This document shows, in pieces, positions 26,142 through 35,100 of a stretch of 51,574 bases of DNA (the stretch's first letter is position 1; every line of letters begins with the position of its first letter). A program made the translations under genes and the position numbers. The stretch comes from Atractiella rhizophila (Eukaryota), in assembly GCA_021432655.1 (NCBI GenBank), contig MU271509.1:1-51574 (forward strand), read 5' to 3'. The notes beneath the pieces are model-generated. The model had not been told where the DNA came from, ran no database searches, and saw only the letters and a list, made by a program, of their open reading frames with translations.

Positions 26142-26771
26142 AGGGTAATGTGAATGAATACAGAACTGAGATCCTCGAAGATCCCTGTGTATCACCTTGT
26201 AGACACGCAATCTGATTCTCTGTGCCCATTACAGCTTCCTCAGTCAATTCACTGGTATTCTCAGCTCGTTACAATTCGGCGTGAGGGGATCGATGTGGTC
26301 CATTCCGTCTTCCCGACTGCTCCCTCGCATTCTCATCATCCGTAGCACTCATTCAATTCACCGCCGTGACCCCCTCACCACCGTCACTGCCACCTAGCCA
26401 GCCGAAAGACTCCTTCCACGGTGCATCATGCATCATGCGTCAATGGTCGACGACAGATTTGACCCAGCAACATGTTTGGCTCACTCACACAAGCATTGAC
26501 CCCAGCTTCCTTGTCACACGTCAAAATAAAAGGGAGAACAGTTAACGATGTCGCCCCTTCAAGTTTGGATTCTAAACTGTTCTAAAATACTTTAGAAAAC
26601 TATTACAACCTATTGCGTTTCAGGGTAGCTATATCACTGCCTTGAATTCAGGAAGCCTACACATTTTCAGTGAAAAGTATTGACAGCTTGACGTTTAGAA
26701 GGTGCGAACACCATAACTTTCAGGTGCGTACTCGAAAGGAAGTATGAGCTAAGAAAGATGAGTTGTGCAGG

Positions 26772-28130
26772 ATGCCCGTTTCCCCAGCACTGCCAGGGAT
26801 TCCAGACGACATTGTTGTGCTGATATTCTCTTCCCTCTCCAACGAGTACCTCGCAAGATGCTGTCGTGTTTGTCGGCCTTGGAACGCTATCGCGCAGCCT
26901 ATGCTGGATCGAAGACGTGTCTTCACGTTCTCTGCTGTGGAAGGGAACGACGATTGGGAACGGAGGCAACTGGAGCACCAGAGCCGGCTGATCCACCCTT
27001 CCAATATGGGGAACGTCCGTCATTTGGTTCTGTCAAACCCAGTGATCACAAGTGAGCGCATCATGAAGGACAATGCGAGCTTTACTTTGATGTTTCGAGT
27101 CTTACACGATGTTGCTCCGTATCTGGCATCACTCCGCATCGGAGGATTCAACTTTGCCGCACTGGATAGCTCATTTACTTTCCCCCCGGTGCCTATGCTG
27201 AAAAGTTTGACGATTGACAATACTCATTCGAAACTCCCCTTGGAACTCGATAAAAGTTTGCCTCACTTTCCTATCAGCAACCAACTGCGCTACCTCGTCC
27301 TCCCACTGATTAGCCAGCTTTCAGCACATCTTCTGTCATCTTCCGTCCTCACTCGCCTGGAGGTGACAACTCAAAGCGGGGACCTTGACGAAGAGGCGAA
27401 CAAGAGAATCAGCTGTCTGCCGTGCTTGAAAAAGCTCAAATGGGGTTTCAGGGCGCCGCCGACTAACTGTGTCCTTCCGATCTCCATCACTGACCTCACA
27501 CTTCGTTCTGTGTCCGAAACCGACAAACCCGTCCTTTGGTCCATCCAGGATGCTTTCCCCAACTTTCCTGATCTCTCAAACCTTTCTTCTTTGGTCCTCG
27601 GCCATTTTCTTCCTTTACCTTCCAATTTTCCACCGTGCCAATTCCAGCTCTCGAAATTGCACATTGGTGAGAAGATCGAGCACCAAGACAGTATCGTCAC
27701 ACTTTTGGACGCCTCTGCCGTGTCTTTGGTCGACTTTCGAATCTCAGCCACAAGCCTCCAGGACCTTCGCCAGCTTCTTTATTTCTTTTGCGGGGGACGA
27801 AACAACTCCAGTCCGACATTTGTTGACGTTTTCAAAGTGTTAAACTCTCGACTGAGGAATGTACACATTAACGTGTCCACTTATAAGTGGACAGAGTTTG
27901 AAGTGCGAGGGAATTTTAACGCTGGCGAATTGCGATTTCGCTCTAGTGACATCACGGGAGAGACCGAATTTGCAGCTGGGCTGAATTCCGCTATCATGGA
28001 AGGACTGCTACCGAGTTTGAAGGAAGTTTCGATCCCGGTTGAGGTTGAAAGGGACACACTGAAAACACTCGACGGTTTAAAAGAGAAGCATCAAATCAAA
28101 GTTACAAGTAGGTCCTTTTTTGACGTATGA
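26772..28130 (+). CDS. F-box protein with Leu-rich repeat-like C-terminus (intronless)
   Basis: LPGIPDDIVVLIFSSLSNEYLARCCRVCRPWNAIAQPML F-box pattern and repeated LxxLxL segments. Confidence 0.8.
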   Translation: MPVSPALPGIPDDIVVLIFSSLSNEYLARCCRVCRPWNAIAQPMLDRRRVFTFSAVEGNDDWERRQLEHQSRLIHPSNMGNVRHLVLSNPVITSERIMKDNASFTLMFRVLHDVAPYLASLRIGGFNFAALDSSFTFPPVPMLKSLTIDNTHSKLPLELDKSLPHFPISNQLRYLVLPLISQLSAHLLSSSVLTRLEVTTQSGDLDEEANKRISCLPCLKKLKWGFRAPPTNCVLPISITDLTLRSVSETDKPVLWSIQDAFPNFPDLSNLSSLVLGHFLPLPSNFPPCQFQLSKLHIGEKIEHQDSIVTLLDASAVSLVDFRISATSLQDLRQLLYFFCGGRNNSSPTFVDVFKVLNSRLRNVHINVSTYKWTEFEVRGNFNAGELRFRSSDITGETEFAAGLNSAIMEGLLPSLKEVSIPVEVERDTLKTLDGLKEKHQIKVTSRSFFDV

Positions 28131-28904
28131 ACAGAAGTACTGATCATTATACATTTGGTCCGATTCTGAAGAGTACCGTGTGCGCTCGTCGACCCCTATA
28201 AGATTTCGAAATGGCTGGATGTAGTTCTGATTCTTCGCCTGACAGCAATTCATTAATATTCATCTTTCATTGCCATTGTCTCCTCCAGAAGTTTAAGTTG
28301 GCTACACCAACCCTTGTCTGTCCCCTTCAACTTTGTACTCTCTTCCCTTGCAAAATCCAATTTAATCCCCAAACCGGACTGCGTTCTTGTAACAAAGAAG
28401 AAAAATGGGAAGTGCGTGGTGAATACTGTTAGGAGCAACAGGCACAAATGCTTCCTTCCCTTCCTTTTCCTTCCTAACGACTCGTAACAACGAAACGAGG
28501 CTAGATCTACAAAAGCAACGCGACACAAGGCCAATCCAAGGCAATCCTTTAATTTAACGCGCGTCAACGTGTTTGCGGCGAATAGGAACGGGAGCAAATT
28601 CCGCAGATAAAAGAAGGTCCGTGGTGGCGTAAAAATCCCTCAGTCCCTTGACTGTTCCACTTGGATCATCGGCCCTTGACTCTTTCTTTCGTTGTTCTAC
28701 CTTCCTTGTCGCCCCCAATCCTTCGAGCATCTCGATCGCTACCTATAAAACTTGAAGCAAGCAGACTTCGACCATATCCCATCAGAAGGAACTTCGATAG
28801 TTTAACTCGGATACCGAATTTCGCTCAGGAAGACGACTTTTCTTTTGATCTCCTCTACTTTCGTGCTTTGAACCTAGCTTTCAAACCTCAGAATCGATTT
28901 CAAG

Positions 28905-30454
28905 ATGTTGTCCGGAAAAACCGTTTTCTCTCTCGCCACTCTCCTTGCCGTTGTGAACGCACACGGATTCATCAGCTTCGCTGTACGTTTCTCCTTTCGT
29001 TGTGTCTGTCAAAGGGAGCGGAAAGGTTGAGTCTGGCGTGGCATAGAAATCCGACCTCCAAGATATGCAGAAAGCGCAAAAGACCGATCTTAGCTCGTCT
29101 GCTTGGAGGGCTGTTCCCGATAACACTGGCTGGATCGGAGCTAAGTTCCTTACCAACGAAGCCATCGCTTGTGGAAGCTCTACCACCCCTTTCGGTACCG
29201 TTGCCTCCCCTGGTGGACGTCAGTTCGCCGAGTCCAATCAGAGTGCTGGAAAGCACATGGCCGTCAAGGCTGGTGGAAAGGTTACCCTTGTGGTTAGCGG
29301 AAACCCCGGTACGTCACTTGCGATTTTCCCAGCATGTGGCGAGTGGTATTGAAGAGTCGGATCGCTTGTAGGTGAAGGATGGCCCCATCCCAAAGGCCAC
29401 GTCCAGACTTACATGGCGGACTGTGGAGATTCTTGTGTTGGGAAGGATGCTACAACCTTGAACTTCTTCAAGATTCAATCAGAGAAAAACGGAATTCAGA
29501 ACACTCTTCGTGCGGGCGGCGTCAACTCCCAGTTCGATGGTAACCTTTACAGTGTTGCCATTCCCGCCGGCCTGAAGAACGGAAAATATCTTATGAGGTA
29601 CGAACTTATCGCCTTTGGCCAGAGCAGTGGTGCCGAGGGAGGACAAGATCAATATGTATGCCTTCTTCTGCCCTTCTTCCTGGTTGCTAAAAGCCAATGT
29701 CTCTTCCAATCAGTATCCCTTCTGTGCCCAACTTGACGTTCAGGATGGGACTGGAGCTATTAACTTGAACAACATCGAGACTGTCAAATTCCCGGGTGCT
29801 TATCAGAACGGAAACATCGACCAAAACACCGTTCCTGGACCCGCTGTCATTAATGCTGCTTCATCTGGATCGTCTTCTGGATCTTCATCCAACAATGGCG
29901 ATAATTCCAACGGCGGCGACTCTTCCGTCTCCACTGGCTCCGACAACAACGGAGGATCCCAAACTTCGACTGACTCTGGAGACAACTCTACAGGCAATGA
30001 TTCTTCTGACGATGAAGGAGACTGCACCGATGTTGAAGGCCCCATTACTCTCTCTGGCGTCTCCGACTGTGCCAACATGTGTCTCTCGATCAAATTCTCG
30101 GAAGCTGGATCCCTTGCCCCATCGTGCTCTCTCGATGGAGATGCTAACTGCTTCTGCTCTACCTCCTCCTTCACTGGTGCCTTTGCCCAATGCTTGAGCG
30201 ATAACTGTTCCGCCTCTGAAGCCTCGAAGGCCGTCGATGCGATGTCGAGCACTTGTGGTAATGCGGCTAGGAAAGCAGTGAAGGCGAGGATGATGATCAA
30301 GAAGCGACACGCTCGATCCGTCGCTTCTCACTCCAAGAGGGCCCACCCGACTTCTCACCGTGTGAAGAGGTCCACCATCCAAGCTGATCGTGGTCTCTTC
30401 GAGGATGTCGTCGTACGACGTCTTGCTCGGTCCGTCGCTCGTGAGCAATCGTAG
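28905..30454 (+). CDS. AA9-type lytic polysaccharide monooxygenase fused to a C-terminal CFEM domain
   Basis: 19-aa signal peptide then His1 (HGFISFA). AA9 motifs AIACG, VKAGGKVT, TYMADCGDSC...FFKI, IPAGLKNGKYLMRYELIA, QYYPFCAQLDV, VKFPGAY, VPGPAV. S/G/D/N linker. 8-Cys CFEM at 30068-30256. Three introns. Confidence 0.88.
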
Positions 30455-30868
30455 ACCCCTTCCTCTCCTCCATCGTCATTAGCAGTCGTCGTTCTTCTGT
30501 TTTGGGTCGTCGTCTTAGCATTTTCGTCTTCGTTACTTTTCACGCTTCGTTGCATGTCAATGACCACTAATCGACCACTTGACTGTGGTACGATTTACGA
30601 CTTCTGTTGTTGTCGCTTTTATTACTTGGTTCAAACGAGCCACACATTGAGTTGTGTAGGCTTGATGACCACTGGCATTACTTGACCTTTTCTTTTCTTG
30701 ACGAATTGAAGATTTGCATGCAAGGGTAGTGTCATTCTTTGTAACGCATTTGTAATGCATAACCAATTGGTCTATACACGTTTTTCCACAGGTGAACTCG
30801 TAACTTGAATCGATATTAAACGTGAGCGCATGAAGTATATCACACGGCCACGAAGGAACGAAAAACTG

Positions 30869-32174: not shown

Positions 32175-35100
32175 TTAAAAGTCACTTCCTTCTATCCTGA
32201 ACACCTGAGCATACTGGAAGTAGCCCTGCATGACCTGCTTCAGGATGCTCTGAGGCAGATTCATGGAGACGAGGTTATTGGAAAATTTGAGAAGTCCTTC
32301 CTGACGGATGAGCTTGAACAGATGATGTGCAACCGCCGTTGGATACTGCTCCCCCTAGTCAGGACAACTGCCCGAAGTGAGTAAAGATGAATGAAACGCA
32401 CAGCCATCTCCATATACCAGCGGTGCTGGTACGTTGACAAGCGGACAGCAGCGTTCAGGGCACGATTCACGTCGCCTTCATCAGCGTAGTATTCCAACAA
32501 CTTCATCCATGCCTTAGCACTGAACTTGAGGTCAAGACACCGTTGATAACTGATGCTTCCTTGAGAATGACTTGGAAAGATTGAAAGACGGGTACTGACG
32601 CATCCTTCGCCTCCTCCTTGTGATACAACCTCTGAGCAAGGTCTCCTAATATCTCCCACTCCGTTCCTGTCTTCTTGTATACCATATGCTGAGCTTTCCA
32701 GTGCGCAACTTCCGCCCTCCATATTGTGTAGACTCTCAAATCCTTTCACAAATTCCATTAATCCTTCTGAGGAAAGCCATAGCAAACGGCATACCTCATA
32801 GATAACCATAAACAAATTATCAAGCCATCTCTCACACAACCTCTTATTGCTGAACGCCAAACTCGACGGCGTGCTCTTCAGCCCATTGACCTCCTTCTGA
32901 GTCTCAGCAAGGCTCTCCTTCGTCCCATCTTGCGCTACAATCTGTGGTTTCGCCAAGCCAGGAGCTTCGCCCCCTAAACTAGTCTTCGGTTCCTCCTCCT
33001 CCCCTTTCTCCTGCTCCTCGGAAGAGATAGTGATGGTAGGTATCGACTGACCAGACGGCGTCCGCTCTACCCCCGGTCTCGGGGTAGGGGAAGGGGATTG
33101 CGACCCATTTGGCTCCTCAGGCAGCGGATCCTCCTCCTCCTCCTTCTTGTGAACAGCACGTGTGGAAGCTGCATCGTCTTCATCTTCGTCATCGTGCTCC
33201 TTCCTCGTCCCATTGCCATTGATGATAGGTTTATCTTCCCCCTCCGGCTCTCCCTGTTTTGCCTTCTGAAGTCTATACTCCTCTTCCATCACAAACACAT
33301 AGCTCCTACACTTGAGTAACTCATCCCATCCAATGCAGCTGACCAGCTTGGTTAGCAGGATGTACGCTTTCGAGAATGTACCGCGGAGAGTTCCTCCTCC
33401 TCCCCTTTCTCCTGCTCCTCGGAAGAGATAGTGATGGTAGGTATCGACTGACCAGACGGCGTCCGCTCTACCCCCGGTCTCGGGGTAGGCGAAGGGGATT
33501 GCGACCCATTTGGCTCCTCAGGCAGCGGATCCTCCTCCTCCTCCTTCTTGTGAACAGCACGTGTGGAAGCTGCATCGTCTTCATCTTCGTCATCGTGCTC
33601 CTTCCTCGTCCCATTGCCATTGATGATAGGTTTATCTTCCCCATCCGGCTCTCCCTGTTTTGCCTTCTGAAGTCTATACTCCTCTTCCATCACAAACACA
33701 TAGCTCCTACACTTGAGTAACTCATCCCATCCAATGCAGCTGACCAGCTTGGTTAGCAGGATGTACGCTTTCGAGAATGTACCGCGGAGACCAGGGGCGG
33801 GGAGGCGCAGGAGAGTGATGTCTGCTTCATTGTCCCTTGCGCTGTCGTCGTCAAGAATACCCGATTCAGAGATGAAAGTTTTTGTGGGTAGGTGGGTGCG
33901 GGCAGGTGTTGGCATGCGATGAAGATCTCGTTCGTTGTAGGTGAACATAGGGCAGGAGTTGAGCGTCAACAGAGCCTGTCAAAAGCTCAATCCCTGTGCT
34001 TTCTTAATGACGATTAGACTGGCGCACCTCATGATAATGCCCCATCTCGATATGTACCTCTGTAAGCTTCGCCCAAGTGACAAACTCGCTTGGTGCACAA
34101 TTGACAGCCTGCCCTCCCATCTCGTGAGTATACTCTCATCACGGTGCAACAAACAGCTCCAACGCACATGCTTAGCAAGAGTGAGAGCCCAATCCATCTT
34201 CCCTTTGCTTCGGAGATAGTCGACTTGGACATGCAAAAGTGCGTAACTCTGTGAATGTTGCGTCATGGCCCTATTCAGAATCTGAACAGCTTTCACTTCT
34301 TCGTCTACAACCAGTTCCTTAGTTCTTGCTCACGAAGCACTGACTGAGAACCGACTTACTCATGCCGAGATAAGCCTTCGCTAACAATGCAGCAACTTCG
34401 CCATCCTTTATCACTAGCTTCTCGAAGAGGTTCACCGCCGGTTCCCAACTATACATTCGTTCTCATAATTAATGGCAAACCCTGAAGATGGCTAGGTGCT
34501 CGTACCGGAAAGAGTCCCCGAAATATTTGAGAACACCTTTGGTTAAATGATTCTCAACTGTCGTTGCGACCTGAATTTCCGGCTCACTTCCCAACTGCCA
34601 GCCTATGTTCACATTAATTTCAGCTATGCCGCTTCCTTCATTAAATCCTCGGGAGAGCGGACCTTTAAAGAAGCAGCTTTCGACTGCAGCAAGAAACCTC
34701 TGCTCCGCCTCAAGAGTAGGGAGAGGGTCCAGTTTGCGGAAGCCTGCCAAACGGTAGTTGGTATCGTCGGCGTAGAGGATGGATCGTAACACTGCAGAAA
34801 GGTAGGTTTCTTGCCATAGCGAGGGCGTAGCCTCATGCCTTTCTCCAGCAGCACATTACTTCTCCATCATATCATAGTAGGCCAAGAGCACCGTACCTTT
34901 CACCTCGCAAGTCAACGACGTACGCCTCCACACCGCCCGGAATCTTCACTTCGACTCGAAGGTCCACCCGAGAGAAAGCATTATAGGCACAATAACACCC
35001 AAACTTGATCTTCCACCCCTTTCCCTGTCCTCCCCAGCCTCCCTTCTCAGCATTCAGCGACAGACTATAGGTGAGCGAGTTGATGTAGGCTGCGAGTGAC

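What the first reader, a model, noticed from the sequence alone, without database searches (positions are those of the whole stretch)
28905..30256. AA9 LPMO fused to a CFEM domain that retains the candidate heme-ligand Asp
Seen: signal peptide, His1, AA9 fold motifs, an S/G/D/N linker, then C-x3-C-x14-C-x7-CxC-x11-C-x4-C-x15-C with D-x2-C-x-C (GDANCFC). Established: AA9 enzymes usually carry CBM1 or disordered tails and need an external electron donor such as the heme domain of cellobiose dehydrogenase; Candida CFEM hemophores such as Csa2 bind heme through an Asp in this region. Inference: CFEM may anchor the enzyme at the cell surface or bind heme and link it to redox or metal handling. I do not recall a characterised AA9-CFEM fusion, but could not search.
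Basis: partly seen in the sequence, partly recalled or inferred. Interest (0 to 1): 0.7.

Follow-up and report, generated by a model that had tools for sequence, protein, structure and literature searches.

The report
Remodelled copper enzyme with CFEM module
A fungus makes a secreted copper enzyme of the cellulose-oxidising kind whose active-site surroundings and binding face are rebuilt and which carries a fungal surface module; the pairing was already listed in a genome survey, appears never to have been tested, and its heme-binding role is doubtful.

Summary
The fusion is real and expressed: four exons, 454 aa, all three introns spliced in 4 of 4 laid runs, with Pfam AA9 and CFEM hits. The heme idea is weak. 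The Asp is a general CFEM consensus residue and is missing from about half of the CFEM units in this group. The Csa2 lid Tyr has no counterpart, and 7 of 22 relatives have no CFEM at all. The architecture is already catalogued (3 proteins in a 218-genome survey) but I found no characterisation. The more interesting part is the enzyme. It belongs to a long-branch basidiomycete AA9 clade (polypores, Auriculariales, rusts). The clade keeps His1, the second brace His, Gln and Tyr. It has lost the stacking His, has His or Asn at a normally fixed Pro, lacks the LC-loop substrate Tyr and carries an ~18-residue insert. Best reading: a copper oxidase/peroxygenase for a substrate other than crystalline cellulose, held at the fungal surface by CFEM and the tail. 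Activity is inferred, not shown.

The parts
28652..30776 (+). Spliced transcript span (longest laid contig, poly-A behind 30776)
   Evidence: run X15 record 8; contigs show presence and splicing, not level or true start
28905..28961 (+). Signal peptide, 19 aa, ending just before His1
   Evidence: sequence; homologues have an equivalent leader before HG(F/Y/W); no predictor run
28962..29848 (+). AA9 catalytic domain, aa 20-253, split by three introns
   Evidence: Pfam PF03443; 59-63% identity to closest homologues; homologue model matches AA9 structures at Z 24.3
28983..29046 (+). Intron 1 (64 nt, GT..AG)
29309..29371 (+). Intron 2 (63 nt, GT..AG)
29656..29713 (+). Intron 3 (58 nt, GT..AG)
   Evidence: near-identical spliced protein P0025
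28962..28964 (+). His20 = mature His1, copper brace
   Evidence: 19 of 19 non-redundant clade rows
29176..29238 (+). Clade-specific insert after the first Cys (about 18 extra residues; conserved T-P, P-x-G, F)
   Evidence: Cys68-to-His119 distance: median 51 in the clade vs 33 in other AA9; pLDDT 87-94 over this stretch in the homologue model
29386..29388 (+). His119, second brace His (WPH)
   Evidence: aligns with WPH of HjCel61B, HiLPMO9B and HjLPMO9A; 19 of 19
29398..29400 (+). His123, at the Pro of the AA9 G-P motif
   Evidence: 28 His, 5 Asn, 1 Pro of 34 clade rows; Pro in 85 of 88 other rows
29617..29619 (+). Gly196, where AA9s usually have the second-sphere stacking His (ALH becomes AFG)
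   Evidence: 27 Gly, 2 Asp, 1 His, 1 Leu, 3 gaps of 34; other rows 61 His and 20 Gln of 88
29650..29716 (+). Gln207-x-Tyr209: second-sphere Gln and axial Tyr (spans intron 3)
   Evidence: 17 Gln + 2 Glu and 19 Tyr of 19
29801..29842 (+). Shortened LC segment (Tyr238 to PGP) with N-I-D in place of the cellulose-stacking N-I-Y
   Evidence: median 10 vs 21 residues; Tyr/Trp in 2 of 31 parsed clade rows vs 67 of 71 parsed others; register
29849..30052 (+). Acidic S/T/G/N/D linker, aa 254-321, with lone Cys312 (30023-30025)
   Evidence: 82% S/T/G/N/D, 12 D/E, no K/R; low pLDDT
30050..30256 (+). CFEM domain, eight Cys; Asp351 at 30140-30142; no Tyr, His or Trp
   Evidence: Pfam PF05730; best fold match Csa2, rmsd 2.2 over 72 columns, Z 7.6
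30260..30454 (+). Cationic tail (18 K/R, 4 His, several dibasic sites) with X283-like KRHAR at 30302-30316; no GPI-type end; stop codon
   Evidence: X283 consensus RXHAR from PMC10990093

Best explanation
A secreted mono-copper LPMO of a distinct basidiomycete AA9 clade. After signal cleavage His1 and His119 bind copper over Tyr209, with Gln207 in the second sphere (residues shown; copper binding inferred from the family). It is reduced by small reductants and uses H2O2 or O2 to cleave a polysaccharide oxidatively (inferred). The stacking His is gone and a His/Asn has appeared at the G-P proline, which may take over its hydrogen-bonding role (inferred; geometry not measured). The binding face is rebuilt (LC Tyr lost, ~18-residue insert), so the substrate is probably not crystalline cellulose but a glycan of the fungus's own wall or of the hypha-host interface (inferred). 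CFEM is an optional, non-catalytic module that, with the cationic tail and possibly a Cys312 disulfide, keeps the enzyme at that surface; it does not supply electrons.
For: Brace and Gln/Tyr invariant in 19 of 19 non-redundant rows. AA9 fold at Z 24.3, rmsd 2.2 over 196 residues, AA11 only 12.5. The clade is one side of a 100/100 branch about 1.6 substitutions per site long. LC and insert statistics; Tyr212 of TaAA9A is a cellulose-binding residue (PMC10166503). CFEM is absent from 7 of 22 clade rows, 6 of which show His or Asn at position 123 and no stacking His, and the label needs 4 changes on the tree. CFEM mutants share wall-defect phenotypes (PMC4183699). Stand-alone CFEM-like proteins of similar subtype occur in this genome, one followed by a Ser/Ala-rich stretch. 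An AA9 acting in wall integrity is known in Cryptococcus (PMC10166503). The gene is spliced in two root metatranscriptomes.
Against: No activity, substrate or localisation data exist for any clade member that I could find. Loss of the stacking His is not unique: 27 of 88 other AA9 rows also lack it. Mutating it lowers oxidase rate in MtPMO3* (PMC11079946), so activity may be low. Polypores and rusts also attack plant walls, and expression in roots fits a plant substrate equally. There is no GPI signal, and dibasic sites may cut off the tail. CFEM binding to wall glycan is not demonstrated in what I read. The folded catalytic domain was a 60%-identical homologue, not the window's protein.
Confidence: 0.5

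Rival explanations
1. A plant-wall LPMO (amorphous cellulose, hemicellulose or soluble oligosaccharides) used during root, leaf or wood colonisation; CFEM acts like a dispensable binding module or contacts a host protein.
For: AA9 fold and Gln/Tyr pair as in cellulose-active enzymes; named carriers are wood decayers and rusts; spliced transcripts in two root metatranscriptomes; an X283-like tail like that of the cellulose-active CoAA9A (PMC10990093); secreted CFEM proteins act on plant immunity (PMC13586796).
Against: The LC Tyr and about 11 residues of the binding face are missing; no CBM1 was found by Pfam in any clade member among the 39 proteins scanned.
Confidence: 0.22
2. An LPMO-fold copper-binding protein with little or no polysaccharide activity: His123 and the His-rich tail serve copper capture, buffering or H2O2 handling at the cell surface, as is recalled for X325/Bim1-type proteins.
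For: Loss of the stacking His and of the substrate Tyr; an extra His beside the brace; LPMO tails can bind copper through His and dimerise through a lone Cys (10.1101/2025.11.04.686606 abstract); a degenerate clade member without the second brace His exists (P0055).
Against: Gln207 and Tyr209, which serve catalysis, are kept in 19 of 19 rows; His123 is Asn in 4 of 19, which suits hydrogen bonding better than metal ligation.
Confidence: 0.15
3. One reading: CFEM binds heme through Asp351 and either feeds electrons to the copper or couples the enzyme to iron/heme handling.
For: Asp351 is in register with the Csa2 ligand; the domain folds most like Csa2; all named agaricomycete members keep the Asp; a flexible 68-residue linker would allow contact.
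Against: The Asp is a general CFEM residue and some CFEM proteins do not bind hemin; 14 of 28 parsed clade units have it in register; no Tyr, His or Trp for the lid; CFEM is lost in 7 of 22 clade rows. Recalled, not read here (Nasser 2016): Asp ligation holds ferric and not ferrous heme, which suits a carrier and not an electron donor.
Confidence: 0.1

Closest known systems
AA9 LPMOs (PF03443): HiLPMO9B 5NNS, HjCel61B 2VTC, TaAA9A 2YET, HjLPMO9A 5O2W
   Same: Fold (Z 23-24), His1, internal His, Gln-x-Tyr, two disulfide-position Cys pairs
   Different: Only 20-30% identity over aligned residues; stacking His replaced by Gly; His at the G-P Pro; LC loop about 11 residues shorter without its Tyr; ~18-residue insert; CFEM instead of CBM1
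AA9-CFEM entries in Berlemont 2017 (PMC5428031 supplement): Exidia glandulosa 665838, Melampsora lini 203373 and 203374
   Same: Same domain architecture, same fungal orders as named clade members
   Different: A listing only; no search hit for CFEM in the main text; I did not test whether those three sequences fall in this clade
Candida albicans Csa2, Rbt5, Pga7 hemophores
   Same: Eight-Cys helical CFEM fold (rmsd 2.2 over 72 columns) and the Asp before CxC
   Different: 22% identity; no Tyr lid residue in the linker or domain; fused behind an enzyme; no GPI signal
Cryptococcus neoformans Cel1 (AA9, PMC10166503)
   Same: Basidiomycete AA9 with altered surface aromatics, long C-terminal region, unknown native substrate, role in the fungus's own wall
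   Different: Cel1 keeps the TaAA9A Tyr24/Tyr212 equivalents and has a disordered tail with no CFEM mentioned; its sequence was not compared here
Colletotrichum CoAA9A (AA9-X283, PMC10990093) and Pycnoporus PcoAA14A tails
   Same: Cationic RXHAR-like or His-rich tail and a lone Cys
   Different: Here a folded CFEM lies between the lone Cys and the cationic tail; the motif is KRHAR and was found in 2 of 21 clade rows checked

Membership tests
AA9 LPMO | Pfam PF03443 above cut-off | tested here: met
   58.8 bits vs 27.8 on exon 3 alone
AA9 LPMO | N-terminal His after a signal peptide plus internal His (His brace) | tested here: met
   His20 and His119; sequence alignment to solved AA9s; cleavage site read by eye
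AA9 LPMO | Second-sphere Gln/Glu and axial Tyr (Q/E-x-Y) | tested here: met
   Gln207, Tyr209
AA9 LPMO | AA9 beta-sandwich fold | tested here: met
   model of homologue P0001 (60% identical), pLDDT 89, Z 24.3
Canonical cellulose-active AA9 | Second-sphere stacking His | tested here: not met
   Gly196; 1 His among 34 clade rows. Typical of the family but not universal: 61 of 88 other rows have it
Canonical cellulose-active AA9 | LC-loop substrate-stacking Tyr (Tyr212 of TaAA9A) | tested here: not met
   segment 10 residues long, N-I-D, no aromatic
AA9 LPMO | Copper binding and oxidative polysaccharide cleavage | not testable with these tools
   needs purified enzyme
CFEM domain | PF05730 above cut-off; eight Cys in CFEM spacing | tested here: met
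   41.7 bits vs 22
CFEM domain | Helical-basket fold of Csa2 | tested here: met
   top hit in both searches: Foldseek probability 0.96 but E 0.59; Z 7.6 vs 4.7 for the next entry
CFEM hemophore (Csa2/Rbt5/Pga7) | Axial Asp before CxC | tested here: met
   Asp351; necessary, not diagnostic
CFEM hemophore (Csa2/Rbt5/Pga7) | N-terminal loop Tyr stacking on heme (Tyr36) | tested here: not met
   no Tyr, His or Trp in aa 254-390; the aligned stretch is the low-confidence acidic linker around Cys312
CFEM hemophore (Csa2/Rbt5/Pga7) | Heme binding | not testable with these tools
   needs spectroscopy on the purified domain
GPI-anchored CFEM or LPMO proteins | Hydrophobic C-terminal GPI signal | tested here: not met
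   best 15-residue hydropathy in the last 35 residues 0.63; below 1.0 in all 21 clade rows checked; simple window test, no GPI predictor
AA9-X283 | C-terminal RXHAR motif | tested here: inconclusive
   KRHAR, one conservative change, 45 residues from the end

The most novel reading that the evidence does not exclude
The clade is a separate LPMO subfamily with a relocated second-sphere His, and in members that keep Asp351 the CFEM binds heme, giving a single-chain copper/heme enzyme that reduces or protects its own copper site without a partner such as cellobiose dehydrogenase.
Probability: 0.07. Interest if true: 0.85.

Novelty: new variant of a known kind. Interest (0 to 1): 0.5.

Why it matters
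The stacking His of AA9 enzymes is debated in mechanism papers and studied by point mutants. A natural clade that has dropped it, placed a His or Asn at a new position and rebuilt its binding face, and has kept this from polypores to rust fungi, is a ready test of what that residue does and a likely source of a new LPMO substrate. If it works on the fungal wall or the host interface it adds to the short list of LPMOs with non-nutritional roles. It also offers a case for asking what a CFEM domain does when it is not a hemophore. The domain pairing alone is catalogued and would not merit a high score.

Tried and rejected
Complex prediction of AA9 domain with CFEM domain of homologue P0001, zinc and heme riding along: no answer, score 0.00 in two runs, no contacts given; not evidence either way. 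No model coordinates were available, so the position of His123 relative to the metal site was not measured. A search with the CFEM domain for longer proteins returned only the near-identical P0025 among 31 candidates (weak). The ESM Atlas gave only general AA9 clusters. Scan-wide look-ups by words and by sequence found nothing; the one nearby note concerns another gene. Main-text searches for CFEM gave 0 hits in PMC8615602, PMC10354095, PMC10990093, PMC10166503, PMC5428031 and 10.1101/2024.06.17.599355; 'AA9-CFEM' gave 0 papers. PMC4530338, PMC7990074 and 10.64898/2026.05.08.723727 gave no relevant passage. Rejected: annotation artefact joining two genes (the end of AA9 and CFEM share exon 4; contigs in three runs bridge intron 3 into the CFEM region). 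Rejected: pseudogene (open frame, second copy with identical protein over aa 176-454). Rejected: functional gene cluster (neighbours are an F-box gene, ChAPs, TIM, BRF1, dehydrogenases). A first exon model had wrong boundaries and was corrected.

Full report
Gene and expression. The feature is a four-exon gene on the + strand (28905-28982, 29047-29308, 29372-29655, 29714-30454) coding for 454 residues. Of 24 runs listed, 18 hold the stretch. I laid 4 of them, and all 4 skip the three GT..AG introns; two are recorded as root metatranscriptomes, and one contig runs from 28652 to a poly-A at 30776. These are contigs, so they show splicing, not level. A second copy on contig C1565 is 99.2% identical over 2.17 kb and codes for the same residues 176-454; it is probably the other allele (inference). 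The genome search found two AA9 loci, this one and an ordinary one (a lower bound, since introns split matches). The organism is a basidiomycete by its closest named homologues; I did not resolve it further.

Observation. Pfam gives AA9 on exon 3 (E 9.3e-16) and CFEM on exon 4 (E 1.2e-10). The Cys spacing and GDANCFC are as reported. A model of exon 4 is confident over the CFEM (pLDDT 87-97) and its top structural match is Csa2 (Foldseek probability 0.96, E 0.59, rmsd 2.2 over 72 columns; Z 7.6, next entry 4.7). A lone Cys312 sits in the acidic linker; 11 of 21 clade rows checked have such an unpaired Cys outside the domains. There is no GPI-type hydrophobic end.

Relatives. Searches returned AA9-CFEM proteins from Polyporales (Polyporus, Lentinus, Daedaleopsis, Cerioporus), Auriculariales and rust fungi (Hemileia, Puccinia coronata, Phakopsora), a CFEM-less member from Meredithblackwellia, and unnamed records. 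Of 177 proteins held, 122 had a near-complete catalytic domain; 34 scored above 150 bits with a profile built from the group (so partly circular; near-duplicates and faulty gene models included) and 88 scored 107 or less. In a tree of 44 rows (the window, 21 relatives, 22 of the other AA9s, midpoint root), the group is one side of a 100/100 branch about 1.6 substitutions per site long. CFEM is present in 15 of these 22 rows, in one to three copies, and needs 4 changes on the tree. A local CFEM profile hit only group members among the 177 proteins. So CFEM goes with this clade but is optional within it.

The catalytic domain is the unusual part. In 19 non-redundant rows His1, His119 and Tyr209 are invariant and position 207 is Gln (17) or Glu (2). 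A model of homologue P0001 (60% identical to the window's domain, pLDDT 89) matches AA9 structures at Z 24.3, rmsd 2.2 over 196 residues. Four things differ. First, the stacking His (ALH) is Gly in 27 of 34 rows and His in 1; among the other 88 rows it is His in 61 and Gln in 20, so its loss is unusual but not unique. PMC11079946 (passages) calls it highly conserved and reports slower oxidase turnover when it is mutated; PMC10472438 (passages) gives His-Gln-Tyr as the AA9 combination. Second, the Pro of G-P, found in 85 of 88 other rows, is His in 28 and Asn in 5 of 34. Third, the segment between the LC Tyr238 and PGP has a median of 10 residues against 21, with Tyr or Trp in 2 of 31 parsed rows (of 34) against 67 of 71 parsed (of 87); this removes the N-I-Y Tyr, at position 211-212 in the solved AA9s aligned, which PMC10166503 (section 6) names for TaAA9A as a cellulose-binding residue. 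Fourth, about 18 extra residues lie between Cys68 and His119. That His123 replaces the stacking His is my inference; I had no coordinates to measure it.

The heme idea. Csa2 holds heme with Asp80 and Tyr36 (PMC13586796, passages). [quoted passage not shown] All 3 of 3 unrelated CFEM loci parsed in this genome have the Asp. In the clade 14 of 28 parsed units have it in register (15 if one mis-parsed row is corrected; two proteins did not parse, of which P0056 shows the Asp; near-duplicates are counted), and 5 have an Asp one place earlier. The named agaricomycete members keep it and the named rust members do not. The window's residues 254-390 hold no Tyr, His or Trp. From memory, not read here (Nasser 2016), Asp ligation binds ferric but not ferrous heme, which argues against an electron donor. 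Heme binding is not excluded, since the Asp and the fold are there.

Mechanism. Most likely (0.5): a secreted copper LPMO, primed by small reductants and driven by H2O2 or O2, acting on a glycan other than crystalline cellulose at the fungal wall or host interface, and held there non-covalently by CFEM and the cationic tail, perhaps dimerised through Cys312 as in CoAA9A. Shown: gene, splicing, residues, fold, clade, optional CFEM. Inferred: copper binding, activity, substrate, localisation. Rivals: plant-wall enzyme (0.22), non-catalytic copper protein (0.15), heme-coupled enzyme (0.10).

Novelty. The supplement of PMC5428031 (rows seen) lists AA9-CFEM for 3 proteins in 218 genomes; its Table 1 counts 1,795 AA9 proteins. 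I found no study of such a protein, nor of this active-site pattern, in searches. The library lacks most subscription journals (Lenfant 2017 and Nasser 2016 were not read), bioRxiv supplements are closed, and I searched the supplements of one paper only, so other listings may exist. Other papers seen: PMC8615602, PMC10354095, PMC10282164 (passages), 10.1101/2025.11.04.686606 (abstract and two passages). Verdict: a new variant of a known kind, interest 0.5, earned by the rebuilt active site and surface more than by the CFEM Asp.

Noticed in passing
L014:1402-1692 (+) and L016:1429-1875 (-); similar hits L015, L017: Small secreted-looking stand-alone proteins with a CFEM-like unit resembling the fused subtype but lacking the third and fourth Cys; the L014 locus has a Ser/Ala-rich stretch downstream. 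Possible relatives of the fused module.
   Followed up: partly
G000 contig C1565 (L004): Second copy of the 3' part of the gene, 99.2% identical at DNA level, same protein over aa 176-454; probably the other haplotype.
   Followed up: yes
protein P0055 (unnamed record): Long-branch clade member that keeps His1 and CFEM but has lost the second brace His, Gln and Tyr: a probable non-catalytic derivative.
   Followed up: partly
proteins P0012/P0033 and P0040 (unnamed records): Clade members with three and two CFEM repeats; the repeats differ in whether the Asp is in register.
   Followed up: partly
protein P0014 (Meredithblackwellia eburnea): Clade member without CFEM but with a hydrophobic, probably transmembrane stretch after the catalytic domain, i.e. 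a different way to hold the enzyme at the surface.
   Followed up: no
window 26748-28130 (+): Long open frame with an F-box domain directly upstream; no link to the AA9 gene seen.
   Followed up: partly
window 32261-33978 (-): ChAPs (Chs5p-Arf1p-binding) gene about 1.8 kb downstream; the family traffics chitin synthase (recalled). Adjacency may be chance.
   Followed up: no
L002:700-1750 (G000 contig C370): The genome's other detected AA9 locus, with ordinary ALH and QFY motifs.
   Followed up: partly
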